From contig CAVTTN010000002.1 in assembly GCA_963737655.1 (NCBI GenBank), positions 1,440,001-1,504,000 on the forward strand: DNA of 64,000 nt, read 5' to 3'. Source of the stretch: an uncultured Planctomycetota bacterium (lineage in GTDB: Bacteria; Planctomycetota; Planctomycetia; Isosphaerales; Isosphaeraceae). Shown here one piece after another: positions 1 to 8,574 of the stretch (within the stretch, counting starts at the first letter, position 1; every line of letters begins with the position of its first letter). The notes beneath the pieces are model-generated. The model was not told the origin of the DNA. It searched no databases and saw nothing but the letters and a program-made list of their open reading frames with translations. Both the position numbers and the translations under genes were made by a program.

Positions 1-906
1 GCGCGAGAGGCGGCCAGGCGGATGAGATGCGCCAACAACCTGAAACAGATCGGCCTCGCCCTCCAGGGTTATCACTCGGCGATCGGGACGTTCCCGATCA
101 ACTGGCGGAACGACCTGTTCGCTCCTCAGGGGAACCCGCCCAACACCATCGCCAGGCCGTTCTCCGCGCTGACCCGGCTGCTCCCCTATCTGGAACAGGT
201 CCCGCTCTACGACTCGATCAATTTCTCCGTCCAGAACTACCCGGACAACACGAACGGGACCTTCTCCTTCCCCCAGAATCGCTCGGCTTACGCGACGACC
301 CTCGACGTCTTCCTCTGCCCCTCGGACGGCGCCCTCTCGCCGACGCCGTTCGGGTGCAATTACCGGGGGAATTACGGGGTCGGCCCGGCGCCGGGCACGA
401 CCCGGGAGACCTTCGACAGCGGCAATGGTTTTTACACGTTCTATTCCGTCCTGAGCGCGGCGTCGTTCCCGGACGGGCTCTCCCACACGGTCGCTTACAG
501 CGAGCGCCTCCGGGGGAGCGGGGCCGGGGGCGGCCTCTCGCCGGAACGGGATTTCGGCGATATCAACGTTCTGCCGTATTGCACGGATCGGGACGCGGAC
601 TACGCGCTCTCCTGCTGTCGATTGGCCTCGGCGAATGGCTTTCCGGCCTTCCGAACGGCCGGCTCGACCTGGTTCCTCGGCGACTTCGAATGCACCGCCT
701 ACAACCACGCCCAGGAGCCCAACGGACGGGTCCCCGATGCCATCATGAGGAACTCCTGGATTGGCATCGTCACCGCGCGGAGCCACCACCCCGGAGGCGT
801 CAATTGCTTGATGGCCGATGGGTCCCTTCGCTTCGTGAACGAGACGATCGCTCGGAAGGTCTGGCGGGGCCTCGGGACGAGGAACGGAGACGAACTCGTC
901 GAATAG
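1..906 (+). CDS. DUF1559 (prepilin-type/SBP_bac_10) protein, 5' end outside window
   Basis: Frame open from base 1: AREAARRMRCANNLKQIGLAL..., LLPYLEQ..LYD, FLCPSD, DGLSHT and C-terminal SHHPGGVNCLMADGS (H-X9-DG) motifs. Confidence 0.95.
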   Translation, partial: AREAARRMRCANNLKQIGLALQGYHSAIGTFPINWRNDLFAPQGNPPNTIARPFSALTRLLPYLEQVPLYDSINFSVQNYPDNTNGTFSFPQNRSAYATTLDVFLCPSDGALSPTPFGCNYRGNYGVGPAPGTTRETFDSGNGFYTFYSVLSAASFPDGLSHTVAYSERLRGSGAGGGLSPERDFGDINVLPYCTDRDADYALSCCRLASANGFPAFRTAGSTWFLGDFECTAYNHAQEPNGRVPDAIMRNSWIGIVTARSHHPGGVNCLMADGSLRFVNETIARKVWRGLGTRNGDELVE

Positions 907-991
907 GCCACCCGCCGCTTCGGGCCCCCCTATTCGGCCCCGGCGTCGGGGCCGACGTTCGGTCGTGCGAGCTCTTGAGGAGGACGGTCGC

Positions 992-1436
992 GTGACGCTC
1001 ACGAATCGTCATCCCCTGTCCACGTCAGTCCTGATGAGATGGCTCCTGCCTGCGGTCCTCACGGCGACGGCCATCGCAAGCACGGAGTCGTTGCGCCACG
1101 GGCGATCGATCCTCGGTGGACAGGAACTGATCGCCTGTCGGGGCAGCAACCAGAACAAGTTCATCGGCACGTTCTCGTGCAATGAATTCAACGGGCAGGC
1201 AACGACAGCCTGCGCAGTCCGGGGATAAATGCGGTACCTGCCAGAAGGCCAACTACACGGATGTCGGATCGTCAACGGGTGGAGGCTATAATCAGGGTGC
1301 CGACAATGGCGGCGATTGCGGGAACGTCTTCAAGGGGAGCTGCAACGCCCAACTCAAGTGTGTCGCGGATCCCGGAGGCGACACTGGCACCCCCTGTAAA
1401 AAGCCCATTGGTCCACCCGTGGCCCAAGCGGGTTGA
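992..1436 (+). CDS. Small secreted Cys-rich peptide precursor (apparent frameshift near 1213)
   Basis: GAGGAGGA then GTG at 992; hydrophobic leader MRWLLPAVLTATAIAS; LGGQELIACRGS motif; ORF 965-1228 ends ...TTAC and ORF 1182-1436 continues QSGDKCGTC...; joined core has 8 Cys. Confidence 0.65.
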
Positions 1437-1504
1437 GATCGGTTCACGAGGCCGCACGTGGCCACGAAGATTATCTATTCAGATACCATGACGTGTAATC
1501 CCGC

Positions 1505-1536
1505 AAGCGGGCTTCAGGGACTTCAGAAGCCCGCTT
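1505..1536 (+). terminator. Stem-loop between peptide gene and downstream genes (attenuator/RNA-stabilising hairpin)
   Basis: aagcgggcttc-N10-gaagcccgctt, perfect 11-bp stem, no U-tract. Confidence 0.5.
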
Positions 1537-1564
1537 CGAGGATGATCGCGAGTCCGAGGAGTTT

Positions 1565-2671
1565 ATGATCTCGAACTTCCTGGCCGTCATGATGATCGGG
1601 GCCTCCGCAGCCGGTGGCGAGGCGGAGCTCGAATCATTATTGAGCACGATCGAGGCCCTCCAGGTCAATGTCCACGATTTCCGATGCGAATACGAAGGAA
1701 CGTTATGGTTCCGAAACCCGGAGGTCATCCGAGCGAGGAATCTCGATGCCTCGGGTCTCTACGACACCTTCAGCGGGGTCTACATCTGGAGCACGGGGGG
1801 TGATGCTTACGTGGACGCCATCCATCGCTATCAACCCGAGGCGAGATTGACCAGGGAGCTTCTGATCGTCCGCGCCAAGAAGAAGCAGGCCGAGCATTAT
1901 CTCAGGGCCGATGATGCCCCGGTCGGTAGCCTTAAATTCGACGACCCAGAGATCGTGAACCCCCAACGGACCGGCTGCGTAGGCGAACTCTTCGTCCTGC
2001 CGGTCATCCGGCGATTGGCGACAAGGAAGGATCTCGAAGCCTCGATCACTAGCGAGACCCTTGACGGACGAGACGTCACCGTCCTGACCTTCTCGACGAA
2101 GTCTCCGAAGAAGCTCCTCGAACGCTTCTGGCTCGACATGAAACGTGGCGGCCATGCCGTGCGACGCGAGGCCTACTCCGATGGGGCTGCTCTGGTCGGC
2201 CGGATCGAGATCCGGCTCAAGTCCTTCAAGGTGGGCGACGAGCCGGTCTGGTTACCCGTTTCGGGAAGCGGCGAAGGCCACGCCGTGATGAAGGATGGGA
2301 AGATTGTGATTATCAAGGAACCGAACTCCATGGAGACGATCGGGATCGTGGACGGAAGCCTGGAATTCAACAAGTATCCCGGCCCTCACACGTTCGAAGT
2401 CACTTACAAGCCCGGGACCCGGGTCTCCGACAACCTCCGGCAGCTTCAATACGAGTACGGCCAGCAGAAGCAGAAGCCCCGGGCCACGAAGGCGGATGCC
2501 CAGGCCCAGCTCCAGGAGCAGGTGGCCCGGGCGGAGGAACAGCGGAAGGAACTGGTCGCCGGCTCTCCGCTCCGGGATGGCCCCGGATGGACCTCGTGGC
2601 TGGTCTGGATCTTCGGCGCCTCGAGCCTGGTCTTCTCGGTCCTGGTCCTGGTCCTCCGGGGGCGTCGCTGA
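1565..2671 (+). CDS. Secreted hypothetical protein with C-terminal coiled coil and membrane anchor
   Basis: GAGGAG RBS; signal-like N-terminus MISNFLAVMMIGASAAGG; C-terminal WLVWIFGASSLVFSVLVLVLRGRR. Confidence 0.8.
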   Translation: MISNFLAVMMIGASAAGGEAELESLLSTIEALQVNVHDFRCEYEGTLWFRNPEVIRARNLDASGLYDTFSGVYIWSTGGDAYVDAIHRYQPEARLTRELLIVRAKKKQAEHYLRADDAPVGSLKFDDPEIVNPQRTGCVGELFVLPVIRRLATRKDLEASITSETLDGRDVTVLTFSTKSPKKLLERFWLDMKRGGHAVRREAYSDGAALVGRIEIRLKSFKVGDEPVWLPVSGSGEGHAVMKDGKIVIIKEPNSMETIGIVDGSLEFNKYPGPHTFEVTYKPGTRVSDNLRQLQYEYGQQKQKPRATKADAQAQLQEQVARAEEQRKELVAGSPLRDGPGWTSWLVWIFGASSLVFSVLVLVLRGRR

Positions 2672-2712
2672 GGGGCCCTGATCTCGCGAGAGGAATCTCC
2701 CCGGGAGCTCCC

Positions 2713-3375
2713 ATGCTTGCCGAACCATGCTTCGCCCGAAACCTCGGGCGCCGTCTTCCCATCCCGCTCGGGATCTTCGTTTCGATGGCGGTCTGCGCCT
2801 CCGCGACGGCGGCCGAGCCGGGGGCGAGGCCGGATTGCGGAGTGAACTCGCTGTTCCTCCTCCTCGAATTCGAGGCCCGTCCGACCACGCTCGATCGGCT
2901 GGACCGTGCCTTGCCGGAACGTCGATCGGACGGCTATTCGATGGCCGAGCTCGCAGCGGCCTCGCGGTCGCTGGGCTTGCCCCTGGAAGGGGTCGATTTC
3001 GGCAAGGGAGACGCCGCGCTCGATCGCCCGGCCATCGCGTTCTTCCAGGATGCCCAGGCGGGGCATTTCGCCCTGCTCCGGCCCGTGGGGACGCGGGTCC
3101 AGGTGATCGACCCGCCCCTCGTCCCCCGGATCGTCGATTATCCCGATCTCTTCGCCGCCAGGACGTGGACGGGGCGCCTTCTCCTCCGGCGCGATCCCTG
3201 GCCGGTTCGCCACCGGGCCTCCCTGCTCGCGGCCTCTGCATCCGGCGCCCTGTTGGCCCTCGCCTGGTGGCGACGCCGGAGCAGGAGAGCTCGGACCGAG
3301 CCGGTCGACCCTGCTGGTCTCCGTGGGGTGGGACTCAGGAGTCCCGGTCATACGCCGTCCGAAGCCAGCGGATGA
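2713..3375 (+). CDS. C39-family cysteine peptidase-like protein with signal peptide and C-terminal TM anchor
   Basis: PDCGVNSL (Cys), GYSMAEL, GHFALL (His), VIDPP (Asp); hydrophobic N-terminal segment and ALLALAWWRRRSRR tail; no ABC domain. Confidence 0.8.
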   Translation: MLAEPCFARNLGRRLPIPLGIFVSMAVCASATAAEPGARPDCGVNSLFLLLEFEARPTTLDRLDRALPERRSDGYSMAELAAASRSLGLPLEGVDFGKGDAALDRPAIAFFQDAQAGHFALLRPVGTRVQVIDPPLVPRIVDYPDLFAARTWTGRLLLRRDPWPVRHRASLLAASASGALLALAWWRRRSRRARTEPVDPAGLRGVGLRSPGHTPSEASG

Positions 3376-3958
3376 CCTCGGCGTCGATCTCCTCGGGTTG
3401 GGCGATCGGGATGCGGTGGGTGATCCGATCCTTCTTGATAAAGCCTCCGGTGTCGATCAGGCGGCCCTGGGCGGGCAGGTCCTTCAGGGCCAGGCCCAGG
3501 TCGATCCGGGTCCGGGTTGTCGGCTTGATCTGGGCGAACTGGTAGTTCCGGTAGAAGGGGACGATCGTCATGCAGGGGCAAATCTTCACGTCCGGGCCGA
3601 GCTCCAGGACGAGTTCAAGGATGCGGTCATAGATCGGCCGGAGGGCGGCCTTCGGGCCGGCGAACATGGTCTCGACGTACCGTTCGGCCGACGCGAGATA
3701 CGCCTCCGGGTCGCCCTCGCCGATGGCCCGGTCGTTCCCCTCGGCGCGATCGACGAGCCATCCGGCGATGTTCGTGCCGACCCCGAACTCTTTCTTCAGC
3801 CAGAGCTTGCGGCCTTTCGTGTCGCCCGGCCCTTGCTCCGGGATGAAATGGATCCACTGATCCAGGGATCGGCCGGTCTTCGTCGGGAGGTCGGCGATCC
3901 ACTTCCGGACCATCGCCACGCTGGGATGGACGCTGTACGGGGTCCTGGCCTTGGGCAT
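3335..3958 (-). CDS. DUF4287/DUF5655 domain protein
   Basis: LPTKTGRSLDQW N-terminal motif and FAQIKPTTRTRIDLGL...ITHRI...EIDAEVIRWLRTAYD C-terminal domain. Confidence 0.8.
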   Translation of the reverse strand: MPKARTPYSVHPSVAMVRKWIADLPTKTGRSLDQWIHFIPEQGPGDTKGRKLWLKKEFGVGTNIAGWLVDRAEGNDRAIGEGDPEAYLASAERYVETMFAGPKAALRPIYDRILELVLELGPDVKICPCMTIVPFYRNYQFAQIKPTTRTRIDLGLALKDLPAQGRLIDTGGFIKKDRITHRIPIAQPEEIDAEVIRWLRTAYDRDS

Positions 3959-3980
3959 GGGCCTCTCCGTCGAGGTTGGA

Positions 3981-5399
3981 TCAGCATTCGCTGACATTCA
4001 CGGGGATCAGGACGGCCAGGCCGCCCTCGGACGTTTCCTTGTACTTGGCGTTCATATCCAGGGCCGTGGCCCACATGGATCGGATCGCGGCGTCGAGCGA
4101 GACCTTGGCCCGCTCGGGGTCGCTCGACAGGGCGAGGTGGGCGGCCGTGATCGCCTTGACGGCCCCCATCGTGTTCCTCTCGATGCACGGCACCTGGACC
4201 AGCCCGCCGACCGGGTCGCACGTCAGGCCCAGGTGGTGCTCCATCGCGATCTCCGCCGCCATGAGCGCCTGGGGGGCCGAACCTCCCAGGACTTGCGCCA
4301 GTCCCGAGGCCGCCATCGCGCTGGAAACGCCGATCTCCGCCTGGCAGCCGCCCATCGCCGCCGAGAGCGTCGCCCCCTTCTTGAAGAGGCTGCCCACCTC
4401 GCCGGCCGTCATCAGGAGATCGGCGATCCCCGGCTCGTCGATGGAATGAAACAGGACCGCGTGGAGCAAGACGGCCGGGATCACCCCCGCCGCGCCATTG
4501 GTCGGGGCCGTCACGACCCTCCCGAACGCCGCGTTCTCCTCGTTCACGGCCAGGGCGAAGACGCTGACCCACTTCAGGGTCTCGGGGAAGCTCCACGACC
4601 GGCCCCGGATCGCCTCCAGGAACGCCTCGGGATCGGCCGGGACCGGCCCCGAGAGCAGGTTGCGGGCCATCGTCGCGGCCCGGCGGACGACTTCCAACCC
4701 GCCGGGCAAGACCCCGTCGGTCCGGCACCCTCGGACCACGCAGTCCCTCATGGTCCGCCAGATTCGCATCAACCCGTCGCGGACGTCTTCCTCCGATCGC
4801 CACGCCCGTTCGTTCTCCCGGACGACCTCGGGGATCGTCAGGCCGCCCTCCCGGCAGTAGCGGAGGAGGTCGGCGGCCGTCTCGATCGGGCGGGGCAGGG
4901 CGACGGCCCTCGCCCCCTCGACCGTCTCCCCCTCCTGGACCACGAACCCGCCCCCGACCGAGAAATACGTCTCCGAACGTCCCGGATGATCCTCCAGGAA
5001 CGCCGTGAACGTCAGCCCATTGGGATGGAACGGCAGGGACTCGGTCCTGTGGAACAGCAGGTCGGCCGCCGGGTCGAACGGGATCGGCCGGACGCCTTCC
5101 AGGGGCAAGGATCGGCCGTTGCGGATCGCGGCGACCTTCGCGTGGAGGGTCGCGGTGTCGCACGAGACCGGATCTTCGCCGGAGAGGCCCATCAGCACGG
5201 CCAGGTCGGTCCCGTGCCCCCGGCCGGTCTTGGCCAGGGAGCCGTACAGATCGACGCGAATTCGCGTGATCTTCTCGAGACCCTTTGCATCGCGGAGGGC
5301 CGCGAGGAACCGCTGGGCGGCCCGCCACGGGCCCATCGTGTGAGAGCTCGACGGCCCCACGCCGATCTTGAAGATGTCGAAAACGCTGATGGATTCCAA
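3981..5399 (-). CDS. sdaA: L-serine ammonia-lyase (Fe-S dependent, single chain)
   Basis: TTG start; [76 protein letters not shown]. Confidence 0.95.
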
Positions 5400-5482: not shown

Positions 5483-6187
5483 TCAATCGAGATAGGCGTC
5501 GGCCGCGGCCCGGGAATAGGTCATTTCCAGGTCGATCGAGATCGCCGCCTCGATGGCCAGGGGCAGGGGGATCGTCGGCAGGGGGGCGCCCACGACCAGG
5601 GGGCGCCGCCAGATCGCCAGAAACCGCCCCCCCTCGGCCGCCGGCTCCCCCACCCGATAGCTGACCGCCGCCGGGGCCGGGCAGGGGGGCTGCGTCATCG
5701 AGAATTCCGCCGCGATCGCATCCGCGAAGGAAAATCCCACAGGCCGGGCATGGACGTCGATCACCACCAGATGCGCCCCGCCGAGCAGATAGCCGAGATC
5801 CCGAGCCAGGTAGGACGCCCGAGCCGTCGGACGGTCCTTGTTCCGGGGCGAGATCAGCTCCACGGCGGCGACCAGGCGCCCCCGACGCTCGATCATCAGC
5901 GAGGTCCCGGGGTCGATCGCGGCCACGGCGACTTCCACATCGGGCCCCTCCGACGAGGCCGCCTCGCCGGAAGCCTCCGGCGGCCGGACGTCCTCGACGG
6001 CCCCCCACGATCGGACGCCCAGATCGGGACGCTCCGGGGGCGCCCCGACGGCCAGCAACGGGGCCGTCCCCACATACGCCCGATACCCCTCCGGCAAGCG
6101 GGGCTTCACCCAGCGGAGCAGCTCCGAGATCCACAGCAGATGCATCCCGTCCCACCCGGGGCGGTCGGTCCAATCGTGGAAGGGCAT
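5483..6187 (-). CDS. DUF4058 family protein
   Basis: MPFHDWT...[25 protein letters not shown]...IDLE..Y pattern typical of this planctomycete family. Confidence 0.85.
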
Positions 6188-6373: not shown

Positions 6374-7012
6374 ATGGACATGCCGCCGATCGAGGAAATC
6401 CTTCAGGTCGTCCGGGAGGAGGACGACGCGGCCCGGGGCCTCCACCGGCTGACCCGTCTCTGTCGGAGGGAAAGCCCCGGGCTCCTGTGGGACCGCTTCG
6501 ACGCCGTTGACCCGAAAAACGACGTCGAGGCCGCCCGCGAGTGGCTCCGCCGGGCGAGGAAATCGGCCGACTTCCCCCGGCCCGCGCAAGGCCTCTACCT
6601 CGGACTCCTGGATCTCGACGACGGGCCCGGCCCCCACGTCGAGATCGCGGCGACCTCCGATCGCGACCCGTCCTCAACCGACCTCGAATGGGCCTGGCGG
6701 TGCGAGTGGCGAGGCGACCCCCACCGGATCGCCGGCCTCGGCGAGATGAGGCGGGTCTACGGCCAGGGGAAGTGGAAGAGGCACTTCGAGATCGCCGACT
6801 ACGCCCTCCCCCTGGGCTACGGAGGGCTCGTCCTGGCCGAGGCGCTGGCGGATCTCGCGGCCGGCCCGCCGTTCCTGGCCGCCTGGGGCTTCCACGACGG
6901 CGACCTCTTCCCCCTGGGCCGGGCCGACGGCCGAGGGTTCGCCCGGATCGCGACGATCGCCCCCGAAGCCCCCGACCGGCCGACCCTCCGCCTATGGACC
7001 GGCCCCGATTGA
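6374..7012 (+). CDS. Hypothetical protein
   Basis: Protein-like composition from [10 protein letters not shown]...; C-terminal WGFHDGD motif; no family recognised. Confidence 0.65.
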
Positions 7013-7970
7013 GCCGGCCTCCGACCCGTCCGGCGGTTCTGTCGGAGATTTTCCATGATTTTCGCGTAATCCTGTGAACAACGGATCAGAAAACAGGCCG
7101 ATGAGCTCTTGGTCGCGAATCGCCTCGACCCGGCGGAGGAATTCCCGCTCGCTCTCGGTCAGGGGAGGACGGAACGGGGCGGCGAGGGCGGCGATCTCGT
7201 CCATCGCGGCCAGCCGTTCCTTTCGGCCCGGCACCAGCGGCTCGATCCTCGGAGGCTGGTCGTCGTGGGTCCGGCCCTGGAGGAGTCGGCCGGTCTTGCC
7301 CTTTCTTGTCCCTCCCCATTGCTTGAAGAAGAAGGGGATCTGGGCCTCGGCGCACTGGTCCCGGAGCGAGAGGACCCAGCGTTCTTCCATCGGTCGGGCC
7401 CCGGGGCCGCTCTCTCCGCCGACGATCACCCAGGAGATGCCGGTCAGGTCGACCCGCCCGAGGTCTTCCAGCAGGGGTTCGACCGAGAGGAACCGCACGC
7501 GGGCCGGGGCGTCTCGGAGGTGGTCGATCCTCGGCAGGCCGTGCTTGCGGTTCTCGACGCTCACGCCCCACCAGACGTGCTCGGCGCCGGCGGCGTCCGA
7601 GAAACGGCCCTTCAGGGAGATCGCGCATCCGCTCCGAACGCTTGCTCAAGACCTGATACGTGTGCCAGTGGGCCAGTTCCATCACGCGGACGAACGCGGC
7701 GATGTAGTCGTCGGGGACGCCTTCGAGGAACAGGTCGCTCATCGAGTTGACGAAGATCATCCGGGGGGCGGCCCACCGGAGGGGCTCGGCCAGCTTCTCG
7801 GGGACCAATCGGAGGTCGAAGCCCTGTTCATACGGGTGGCCGGGGACGCCCCGGAAGCGCTCGGCGAAGGTCTCGGCATAGCAGTGGGCGCAGCCGGGGC
7901 TGATCTTCACGCACCCCCGGACCGGGTTCAGCGTGGCGTCGGTCCATTCGATGGCGGAACGGTCGCTCAT
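6992..7970 (-). CDS. DUF5131 (phage Gp37/Gp68-like) protein, frameshifted near 7616
   Basis: [37 protein letters not shown] in one frame; [32 protein letters not shown] in the next; removing one G of ggg at 7615-7617 joins them. Confidence 0.9.
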
Positions 7971-7992
7971 GGTCGGGGCCCCTCTGGAACGA

Positions 7993-8574
7993 TTATAGGG
8001 ACCAGAGCATGAGCATCAACGCGACCCAGGACGCCCCGACCGCCAGCCCCGCCCGATCGATCCAGCCCGACGCGACCCATCGGCGTCCCCCGAGCCCATG
8101 CAGGCCGAGCGCGACGAGCACGGCGACCGCCGGCCCCCGGACGCATCGCTCGCTGAGGAGCAGGCGCACGGAATTGTGGACGGCATAAAGGTCCCGCTCG
8201 ACCCGGAAATAGAAGGCCCCCCAGTCCAGCCTCCGCTTCGCGGCCAAAACGCCGATTTCCAGGACGTGGACGAGCAGGCCGATCGACGCCCCCCAGACGG
8301 CCGCCAGCCCCGGACGCCGAGAAACGCGAAGGGGGCGGGGGCCGCGGAGGGAGAGCAGGGCGAGCGCCAGCGTCCAGGCCCCCAGCATCGGCGGGAGCTC
8401 GTCGGCCCACGCCTGGAGCCCGTTGCGAATCCGCTCGGCCGTGAACGCGACCGGGATCAGCTCCGAGTCCATCCAGTGCACCGAAGGCCGCATCGCCAGG
8501 CCGCAGGCCGTCGCGGCGACGAGGACCAGGGCGTCCGAGATCCGGAAGGGCCGCTGGTCGGCTCTTTTCTGCAT
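7993..8574 (-). CDS. Hypothetical membrane protein
   Basis: RPFRISDALVLVAATACGLA start, several hydrophobic segments, WIDRAG..VG..W C-terminus. Confidence 0.7.
   Translation of the reverse strand: MQKRADQRPFRISDALVLVAATACGLAMRPSVHWMDSELIPVAFTAERIRNGLQAWADELPPMLGAWTLALALLSLRGPRPLRVSRRPGLAAVWGASIGLLVHVLEIGVLAAKRRLDWGAFYFRVERDLYAVHNSVRLLLSERCVRGPAVAVLVALGLHGLGGRRWVASGWIDRAGLAVGASWVALMLMLWSL

What the first reader, a model, noticed from the sequence alone, without database searches (positions are those of the whole stretch)
1..3375. Candidate extracytoplasmic double-glycine/C39 peptide-maturation system linked to DUF1559
Seen: four co-oriented genes - DUF1559 pilin-like protein, a small precursor, an anchored secreted protein and a stand-alone C39-like peptidase. 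The precursor has a hydrophobic signal-like segment, then L-G-G-Q-E-L-I-A-C-R-G-S (1112-1147), then an 8-Cys core. Established: this fits the double-glycine leader register L(-12), E(-8), L(-7), hydrophobic(-4), G(-2), G/A/S(-1) cleaved by C39 domains, which normally act in the cytoplasm fused to ABC exporters. Here the peptidase has its own signal segment and C-terminal anchor and no ABC domain. Inference: Sec export followed by periplasmic leader cleavage to release a disulfide-rich peptide, possibly handled by the 368-aa protein and the DUF1559 protein.
Basis: partly seen in the sequence, partly recalled or inferred. Interest (0 to 1): 0.85.

Follow-up and report, generated by a model that had tools for sequence, protein, structure and literature searches.

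The report
Planctomycete periplasmic double-glycine processing cassette
A conserved five-gene planctomycete cassette encodes an eight-cysteine mini-protein with a predicted export signal followed by a bacteriocin-type leader, next to a protease predicted to face the periplasm and likely to cut that leader off; I found no paper describing it, and in this copy the mini-protein gene is broken by a frameshift.

Summary
The observation largely stands, with one correction. The precursor is not one ORF here: signal, leader and two core cysteines end at a stop (1228), and the other six cysteines lie in another frame. A fifth gene, a DUF1573 lipoprotein, lies just upstream of the window and is also broken. 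A second cassette in the same genome is intact.

Across relatives the order DUF1573–DUF1559–precursor–LolA-fold protein–C39 is conserved. Of 58 distinct cassettes, 49 carry an 8-Cys ORF, and 43 of those have L(-12)/L(-7)/G(-2), against 8.8 in shuffles. Divergent planctomycete cassettes carry classical G-[GAS] leaders (11 of 13, hand-picked). The C39 keeps its Cys/His/Asp triad, has hydrophobic segments at both ends, and no ABC domain lies nearby.

Against a textbook cut: residue -1 is G/A/S in only 30 of 44, E(-8) in 9, the oxyanion Gln is missing, and 5 of 58 cassettes lack a precursor. Cleavage is untested.

The core is acidic and hypervariable, with no fold match found, so it is unlike a cationic bacteriocin. 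The closest precedent is Pseudomonas FapD. This scan noted the same kind of cassette before in other genomes.

The parts
1..906 (+). DUF1559 pilin-like gene (3' part; it starts 134 nt upstream of the window, 346 aa): class III signal motif and H-X9-DG-CTERM; member of a cassette-specific DUF1559 clade
   Evidence: tree
992..1228 (+). Precursor, N-terminal half (GTG start 9 nt after AGGAGG; alternative ATG at 1034): hydrophobic signal-like segment, leader, core Cys1-2, then a premature stop
1112..1147 (+). Double-glycine-type leader: L(-12), E(-8), L(-7), C(-4), R(-3), G(-2), S(-1); predicted cut after 1147
   Evidence: family statistics
1214..1229 (+). Interval holding the frameshift between core Cys2 and Cys3 (includes a CC-GGGG run); assembly error or real lesion undecided
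1230..1436 (+). Precursor, C-terminal half in the shifted frame: core Cys3-8 and the conserved C-terminal Gln; 44% identical over 80 aa to an intact homologue (L036)
1498..1543 (+). Strong intergenic hairpin between the precursor and the 368-aa gene (possible attenuator or mRNA stabiliser; not general in the family)
   Evidence: z -4.6; 12 of 40 homologues z <= -2
1565..2671 (+). 368-aa protein: N-terminal hydrophobic segment, LolA-superfamily domain (about residues 18-282), helical stalk, C-terminal membrane helix and basic tail
2713..3375 (+). Stand-alone C39 peptidase with signal-like N-terminus and C-terminal anchor; Cys42 (2836-2838), His118 (3064-3066), Asp133 (3109-3111); no oxyanion Gln; 3 residues shorter than relatives between His and Asp

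Best explanation
The cassette likely exports an eight-cysteine mini-protein through Sec, after which its own C39 protease, predicted to be anchored in the inner membrane and to face the periplasm, likely cuts off a second, double-glycine-type leader and frees a predicted disulfide-bonded beta-protein. Shown: gene order, motif conservation, catalytic triad, hydrophobic segments, absence of a nearby ABC domain, LolA-type fold of the 368-aa protein. Inferred steps: (1) signal peptidase, or an uncleaved signal anchor, leaves a 15-25-residue leader; (2) the leader helix docks L(-12)/L(-7)/(-4) in the C39 groove and the cut falls after residue -1, with a relaxed P1 pocket in this subfamily; (3) four disulfides form in the periplasm; (4) least certain (about 0.35): the hypervariable, acidic core is a surface recognition or adhesion module handled by the LolA-fold protein and the DUF1573 lipoprotein and displayed on the dedicated DUF1559 pilin. 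This window's copy is broken in the assembly; the genome's second copy (L001) is intact.
For: Five-gene order recurs in relatives (maps); 41 of 121 family genomes have a matching C39. 49 of 58 slots hold an 8-Cys ORF; leader motif in 43 of 49 against 8.8 shuffled. 11 of 11 new held-out precursors show it too (read by eye). Divergent cassettes with other Cys skeletons have strict canonical leaders in 11 of 13 against 0.41 shuffled (rows picked by eye). Hydrophobic N-segment in 41 of 46 precursors; [AVS]xA just before the leader in 26 of 42 (no null). AlphaFold places a helix on residues 41-47 of the homologue, where G(-2) is residue 49, matching the -10 to -4 helix of the PCAT1 substrate (PMC6959990). 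C39: Cys 66, His 67, Asp 62 of 67; N-hydrophobic 61, C-anchor 58, basic tail 61 of 64. PCAT1 groove residue A55 aligns with M/L/F in 67 of 67. No ABC ATPase near 71 of 71 C39 hits. FapD shows that a Sec-exported C39 works in the periplasm (PMC5557850). The genome has prepilin peptidases, T2SSF, secretins and DsbD. Cut-to-Cys1 distance is 10-11 residues in 31 of 35.
Against: No cleavage, localisation or expression data. Residue -1 is R/L/T/N/C in 14 of 44 and is not clustered on the C39 tree (6 changes against 6.7 shuffled), whereas PCATs need G/A/S in a narrow cleft. E(-8) in 9 of 44; -4 is Ser in 19 of 44. The oxyanion Gln is replaced; in CvaB Q26A/N had a minimal effect but Q26E lowered secretion (PMC3335142). 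The PCAT1 I59 position is often polar (R 20, S 11, Q 11 of 67). 5 of 58 cassettes have no precursor in the slot or the fetched locus. No partner gene co-varies specifically with the core (partial r at most 0.15). A C39-like fold need not cut GG leaders (PMC13642728). One distant cassette lacks DUF1559 within the contig (L134). Signal peptides were judged by hydropathy only.
Confidence: 0.66

Rival explanations
1. The cognate periplasmic C39 cuts the precursor, but in this subfamily not at the canonical bond: after the invariant Gly, or between Arg and Gly, so that residue -1 is simply the first residue of the product.
For: G(-2) is nearly invariant and R(-3) is present in 37 of 44, while -1 varies freely even between close relatives. 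The peptidase has an acidic residue in place of the oxyanion Gln in many members.
Against: The spacing of L(-12)/L(-7) to the Gly is identical to that in divergent cassettes that end in GG/GA/GS and to the PCAT consensus. G/A/S is still the majority at -1.
Confidence: 0.13
2. The leader is only a docking helix. The C39 binds it as a chaperone, or cuts another cassette protein (for example releasing the anchored LolA-fold protein), and the mini-protein keeps its leader.
For: Non-small P1 in 14 of 44; no oxyanion Gln; 5 of 58 cassettes persist without a precursor, at least four of them with catalytic Cys and His; non-cutting C39-like domains exist in T1SS (PMC6363468 passage).
Against: Catalytic Cys and His are kept in nearly all members, unlike the non-catalytic T1SS domains. 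The Gly at -2 is conserved, which cleavage requires and docking alone does not obviously require.
Confidence: 0.13
3. Function rival: the released core is a secreted antimicrobial or polymorphic toxin and the LolA-fold protein is its immunity factor or receptor.
For: GG leaders typically precede bacteriocins. The core is the fastest-changing gene (median 15% identity outside Cys). Patchy distribution, up to 12 C39 matches in one genome.
Against: Cores are neutral to acidic (median -2.5; 0 of 44 at +3 or more). No toxin fold or family match. No specific co-variation with the 368-aa protein (partial r 0.04). A dedicated pilin clade and fixed-length terminal arms fit an assembly role better.
Confidence: 0.2
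4. The precursor is an ordinary PCAT substrate, processed in the cytoplasm by an ABC exporter encoded elsewhere, and the neighbouring C39 is incidental.
For: This genome has a PCAT-length C39 frame elsewhere (C2:6007459, 822-aa frame).
Against: A hydrophobic signal-like segment precedes the leader in 41 of 46. Six cassette-bearing genomes 92-99% complete (G074, G091, G094, G120, G076, G064) list only C39 frames of 416 aa or less. The linkage to the anchored C39 is tight.
Confidence: 0.03
5. About this copy only (not exclusive of the others): the window's cassette is a decaying pseudo-operon rather than a victim of assembly errors.
For: Two frameshifts plus an in-frame stop within about 4.6 kb. 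The genome background is 26 switches in 292 kb and 3 internal stops in 285 kb. The C39 has a 3-residue in-frame deletion absent from 184 other rows.
Against: Cassettes from few-contig genomes show 23 frame switches in 85 kb against 2 in 112 kb for many-contig assemblies, which points to long-read indels. This genome has 3 contigs yet 87.7% completeness. An unrelated DUF5131 gene in the window is also split. Both precursor halves keep all family hallmarks.
Confidence: 0.45

Closest known systems
PCAT/AMS exporters (PCAT1, LahT, ComA, CvaB) and their double-glycine leaders
   Same: C39 domain with Cys-His-Asp (only PDB sequence matches are PCAT1 entries, E 3e-4); leader with hydrophobic -12/-7 and Gly -2; predicted leader helix
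   Different: No ABC or transmembrane transporter domain; peptidase has its own signal-like segment and C-terminal anchor; leader sits behind a signal-like segment; R(-3) conserved, -1 and -8 relaxed; oxyanion Gln absent
Pseudomonas Fap system, FapD (PMC5557850, passages read)
   Same: Stand-alone, Sec-exported C39 whose catalytic Cys is needed; substrates are Sec-exported
   Different: No FapF-type barrel or amyloid subunits in the cassette; cargo is an 8-Cys folded protein; this C39 has a C-terminal anchor; partners are LolA-fold, DUF1573 and DUF1559 proteins; the FapD target was unresolved in the passages read
LolA superfamily (3bk5, DUF1329 4z48, P. gingivalis LolA3 9tp6)
   Same: Fold of residues 18-282 of the 368-aa protein: Z 16.1-16.3, rmsd 3.2-3.5 A over 209-213 residues; Foldseek E 7e-10
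   Different: 12-14% identity; added helical stalk and C-terminal membrane anchor, so not a freely shuttling carrier; ligand unknown
Bufferins and other Sec-exported RiPP precursors (PMC11626156, passages read)
   Same: Small Cys-containing precursors with a Sec signal that mature in the periplasm
   Different: Bufferins begin at the signal-peptidase site and carry MNIO modifications; here there is a second leader with a dedicated protease and no modifying enzyme in the cassette
Modular type IV pilins and pilin-adapter pairs (PilB, CofB-CofJ; PMC8179133, passages read)
   Same: Large pilin-like protein (DUF1559) that could present a partner at a filament tip
   Different: Analogy only; no binding or pilus incorporation shown for DUF1559

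Membership tests
Peptidase C39 (PF03412) | Profile score over the curated cut-off | tested here: met
   26.2 bits against cut-off 22
Peptidase C39 (PF03412) | Cys-His-Asp catalytic triad | tested here: met
   C42/H118/D133; 66, 67 and 62 of 67 homologues; aligns with the PCAT1 triad
Peptidase C39 (PF03412) | Conserved Gln six residues before the catalytic Cys | tested here: not met
   Pro in the window; Glu commonest; Gln in 5 of 100 database homologues
Peptidase C39 (PF03412) | Proteolytic activity on a double-glycine leader | not testable with these tools
   needs an assay; no complex model was obtained
PCAT/AMS exporter system | C39 fused to an ABC transporter, or an ABC exporter in the locus | tested here: not met
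   220-aa stand-alone protein; ABC ATPase near 0 of 71 C39 hits
Double-glycine leader | Hydrophobic residues at -12 and -7, Gly at -2 | tested here: met
   43 of 49 against 8.8 shuffled; 11 of 11 held-out
Double-glycine leader | G/A/S at -1 | tested here: inconclusive
   Ser in the window; 30 of 44 in the subfamily; 13 of 13 hand-picked divergent precursors show a G-[GAS] pair
Double-glycine leader | Glu at -8 and hydrophobic -4 | tested here: inconclusive
   Glu and Cys in the window; family Glu 9 of 44, V/I/L/F at -4 in 18 of 44, Ser in 19
Double-glycine leader | Leader at the very N-terminus, no Sec signal | tested here: not met
   hydrophobic segment precedes it in 41 of 46
Fap functional-amyloid system | FapF-type outer-membrane barrel and amyloid-repeat subunits in the operon | tested here: not met
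   the five cassette genes are DUF1573, DUF1559, 8-Cys precursor, LolA-fold protein and C39
LolA superfamily | Unclosed beta-barrel with helical lid | tested here: met
   Z 16 to three LolA-like structures from a model with pLDDT 92
LolA superfamily | Lipoprotein binding and transfer | not testable with these tools
   fold only; anchored topology differs from LolA
DUF1559 / prepilin-type | PF07596, TIGR02532 N-terminal motif and TIGR04294 C-terminal motif over cut-off | tested here: met
DUF1573 lipoprotein | PF07610 match and lipobox Cys | tested here: inconclusive
   over cut-off in the genome's second copy (28.5 bits), under it in the window's broken copy (21.2); lipobox-like site in 30 of 50 N-termini
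Cationic class II bacteriocin / defensin-like peptide | Short cationic core | tested here: not met
   median core about 105 aa, median charge -2.5, none at +3 or more

The most novel reading that the evidence does not exclude
A polymorphic pilus-tip display system: periplasmic C39 cleavage unmasks a fixed-length N-terminal arm on a hypervariable four-disulfide beta-protein of unmatched fold, which then docks on a dedicated DUF1559 pilin, while the anchored LolA-fold protein and the DUF1573 lipoprotein act as its private chaperone and outer-membrane partner. This would give the first cargo and function for a DUF1559 clade, and a C39 protease that cuts after R-G-x with almost any x.
Probability: 0.25. 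Interest if true: 0.87.

Novelty: new variant of a known kind. Interest (0 to 1): 0.66.

Why it matters
Double-glycine leaders are treated as cytoplasmic export tags read by ABC transporters. Here the same tag follows a Sec-type signal and is paired with an anchored, outward-facing C39, so it would serve as a periplasmic maturation switch. The cassette names a specific substrate and bond for a peptidase class whose one studied member, FapD, had no defined target in the papers I read. It also ties three uncharacterised planctomycete families (DUF1559, DUF1573 and an unannotated LolA-fold protein) to a testable cargo, and supplies dozens of disulfide-rich mini-proteins with no family or fold match. 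A cultured carrier exists (Tautonia sociabilis GM2012, L046), so the test is practical. A stand-alone C39 with relaxed P1 could be a useful leader-removal tool.

Tried and rejected
1. Reads to settle the frameshift: no run was listed; this is no evidence either way.
3. Programmed frameshift at 1214-1229: rejected. 49 of 53 homologous precursors are single ORFs, and I saw no slippery heptamer by eye.
4. Fold of the core: no Foldseek match at E <= 0.001 and best Z 2.3; ESM Atlas gave no usable hit. The model included signal and leader, so this does not show the fold is new. A protein search with the precursor profile returned only 2 proteins (word-index limits).
5. Cognate pairing by co-variation: partial correlations of core identity with each partner were -0.04 to 0.15 over 22 intact cassettes; uninformative.
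6. Conserved hairpin after the precursor: 12 of 40 at z <= -2 against 0 of 40 coding controls; not general, and the control is not intergenic.
7. Phylum search with the 368-aa profile matched 2 of 400 other genomes, but only 4 candidates per genome were scored and one search shows divergent cassettes that this profile barely detects; not evidence of absence.
8. An ELxxx[RKQ]G pattern behind a signal in five FapD-like loci: none found.
9. First genome-wide frameshift count timed out and was rerun on 220 of the candidate queries.
10. Literature: DUF1559 + C39 gave 0 papers; seven further searches listed nothing describing this cassette. Most subscription papers are outside the library and no supplements were read.
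11. Promoter and terminator scan: one sigma-70-like site upstream of the DUF1573 gene; weak.
12. A weak Pfam hit to Pertussis_S2S3 (1 of 89 members, E 0.009) was treated as noise.
Full report
OBSERVATION. The window is G000:C2:1440001-1504000 of a 7.6-Mb, 68.7% GC genome in 3 contigs; the named relatives are mostly Isosphaeraceae. The DUF1559 gene (1-906) starts 134 nt before the window and has a prepilin motif and H-X9-DG-CTERM. The 368-aa gene and the C39 gene are as described. The motif at 1112-1147 is present. The precursor, however, is split: the frame with signal and leader stops at 1228 after core Cys2, and Cys3-8 lie in another frame ending at 1436. The two halves match consecutive parts of the family profile. 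A fifth gene, a DUF1573 Ig-like lipoprotein, precedes DUF1559 outside the window and carries a frameshift and an in-frame stop. A second, intact five-gene copy lies at C2:4.446-4.451 Mb (L001).

IS THE BREAK REAL? Undecided. For artefact: cassettes from few-contig genomes have 23 frame switches in 85 kb, many-contig assemblies 2 in 112 kb, and a DUF5131 gene in the window is split too. For decay: this genome's background is 26 switches in 292 kb and 3 internal stops in 285 kb of paralogue matches (220 queries), lower than seen here, and the C39 lacks three residues between His and Asp (spacing 15 against 18 in 184 other rows). No sequencing run was listed. The family-level result does not depend on this copy.

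CONSERVATION. 41 of 121 family genomes match the C39, including this one; 0 of 3 others in the genus do. Maps of the fetched loci show a fixed order DUF1573, DUF1559, gap, LolA-fold protein, C39. Of 58 distinct gaps, 53 hit the precursor profile (49 as one full ORF, 4 split or truncated) and 5 are short and empty. That profile was seeded on the motif, so I repeated the selection on the Cys skeleton alone: 49 of 58 gaps qualify, and upstream of the core 43 have L(-12)/L(-7)/G(-2), 34 also R(-3), and 28 the canonical G-[GAS], against 8.8, 0.7 and 2.8 in shuffles. These loci are kin, so the shuffles test chance, not independence. Of 16 further family loci, 12 held the slot and all 12 had a precursor; the 11 new ones all show the motif (read by eye). 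Position counts use 44 rows (49 less 3 unparsed and 2 misparsed): R(-3) 37; G/A/S at -1 30; E(-8) 9; N/D at +1 34; eight Cys in most; 10-11 residues from the predicted cut to Cys1 in 31 of 35. The window's halves fit these spacings.

WIDER DISTRIBUTION. From a class-wide PF03412 search (51 of 121 genomes) I picked 20 short-frame C39 loci by hand. By eye, 5 resemble FapD-type loci, 2 are unrelated, and 13 are cassette-like, 12 of them with a signal-bearing Cys-rich small ORF. With one more from a distant lineage (L134, no DUF1559 on the contig), 11 of 13 have a strict canonical leader against 0.41 in shuffles; I had seen the motifs before choosing these rows. Their Cys skeletons differ, so the signal-leader-Cys-core logic appears wider than this subfamily. 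None of the precursors scanned has a Pfam or NCBIfam family over cut-off.

THE PEPTIDASE. Cys, His and Asp are kept in 66, 67 and 62 of 67 homologues; 61 of 64 have an N-terminal hydrophobic segment, 58 a C-terminal one and 61 a basic tail. By the positive-inside rule (established knowledge, not tested) this puts the catalytic domain in the periplasm. The only PDB sequence matches are PCAT1 entries. PCAT1 A55, which contacts the leader leucines (PMC6959990, passages), aligns with M/L/F in all 67, but the I59 position is often polar. The Gln at Cys-6 is absent. In CvaB, Ala or Asn there had a minimal effect and Glu a larger one (PMC3335142, passages); in LahT the Gln lay 4.3 A from the oxyanion and His was proposed instead (PMC6363468, passages). 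No ABC ATPase lies within 3.5 kb of 71 C39 hits, and six well-assembled cassette genomes list no PCAT-length C39 frame. The class of residue -1 is not clustered on the C39 tree, so either P1 is relaxed or the register differs.

THE PARTNERS. The 368-aa protein (442 relatives at E <= 0.001) folds with pLDDT 92 into a LolA-superfamily domain, a helical stalk and a terminal membrane helix; both hydrophobic ends are conserved (81 and 82 of 86). All 46 full-length cassette DUF1559 proteins fall on one branch (SH-aLRT 99, quick tree) that excludes 33 of 34 non-cassette paralogues of this genome; the exception is a very long branch. DUF1573 members show a lipobox-like Cys in 30 of 50 N-termini. An intact precursor homologue folds (pLDDT 79) into signal helix, leader helix and an all-beta core with no structural match found. 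Cores are neutral to acidic and the most variable part of the cassette. The genome has prepilin peptidases, T2SSF proteins, secretins and DsbD.

MECHANISM. Shown: anatomy, conservation, folds. Inferred: Sec export, periplasmic topology, leader docking and cleavage after -1 (0.66), disulfide formation. Speculative: the LolA-fold protein chaperones the cargo or the lipoprotein, and the DUF1559 pilin displays the mature core (about 0.35; full novel case 0.25). Rivals: shifted register (0.13), docking without cleavage (0.13), PCAT in trans (0.03); for function, an antimicrobial product (0.2).

KNOWN SYSTEMS. It works like PCAT leader removal but fails PCAT membership (no transporter, signal before the leader). 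It shares a periplasmic C39 with Fap; FapD has a Sec signal and needs its Cys, and its target was unclear (PMC5557850, passages). A 2026 preprint calls FapD a precursor-processing protease without naming a site in the passages found (10.64898/2026.10.01.755530). Bufferins are Sec-exported RiPPs without a second leader (PMC11626156, passages). Eight searches found no description of this cassette; I read passages of 11 papers, no whole text and no supplements (also PMC3482391, PMC10885120, PMC8179133, PMC5352709, PMC13642728).

EARLIER SCAN NOTES. The same or a very similar cassette was noted in other genomes (e1-3914324, e1-4727418, e1-5067502, e1-6380949). I had recorded the five-gene reading before looking. 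Notes on Fap-type loci report leaders ending in R-G-G or G-Q behind signal peptides (e1-4193900, e1-2567380); if right, they would favour a relaxed P1, but I did not confirm them.

VERDICT. A real, conserved and apparently undescribed system; a new variant of double-glycine/C39 processing placed outside the cytoplasm; cleavage and cargo function untested; this copy is broken as assembled. Interest 0.66.

Noticed in passing
L002:4780-5836 (just upstream of window base 1): DUF1573 Ig-like lipoprotein, first gene of the cassette, with one frameshift and one in-frame TAG.
   Followed up: yes
L001:8295-13031 (minus strand): Second, intact five-gene cassette in the same genome, from the other main DUF1559 sub-branch; leader ends in S-G-A, eight Cys.
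   Followed up: yes
window 6992-7970 (minus strand): DUF5131 gene split over two frames, each half matching Pfam.
   Followed up: partly
window 3335-3997 and 5483-6187 (minus strand): DUF4287-DUF5655 protein overlapping the C39 3' end convergently, and a DUF4058 protein; not part of the cassette.
   Followed up: no
L134:1417-8211: Distant planctomycete variant: ECF sigma-like and anti-sigma-like genes (judged by eye), a secreted protein, a signal + classical GG leader + Cys-rich precursor, a LolA-like protein, C39 and DUF1573, with no DUF1559 on the contig.
   Followed up: partly
L164:6244-7317, L169:5963-7006, L161:4030-5664, L170:5891-7078: Domain variants of the cassette C39: fusion to rhodanese (L164 by Pfam, L169 by eye), C39 running into an Ig-like part (L161), tandem C39 domains (L170); L164 also has a MauE/DoxX-like gene (by eye).
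   Followed up: no
L151, L153, L154, L156, L157: Planctomycete stand-alone C39s of another type (Gln kept at Cys-6 as seen in L153 and L156) beside two secreted proteins of about 370-400 aa; they look like FapD-type loci. My leader pattern found nothing there.
   Followed up: partly
L041, L067, L068, L073, L086: Cassettes without a precursor gene in the slot or fetched locus; possible orphans served in trans, or decaying copies.
   Followed up: partly
L034, L043/L044, L036: Tandem or nearby duplicate cassettes with different cores in one genome.
   Followed up: no
L002:4500-5000 and 7000-8500: GC dips to 55-61% upstream of DUF1573 and over the precursor and LolA-fold genes, against 69% genome-wide; one sigma-70-like site at L002:4657.
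   Followed up: no
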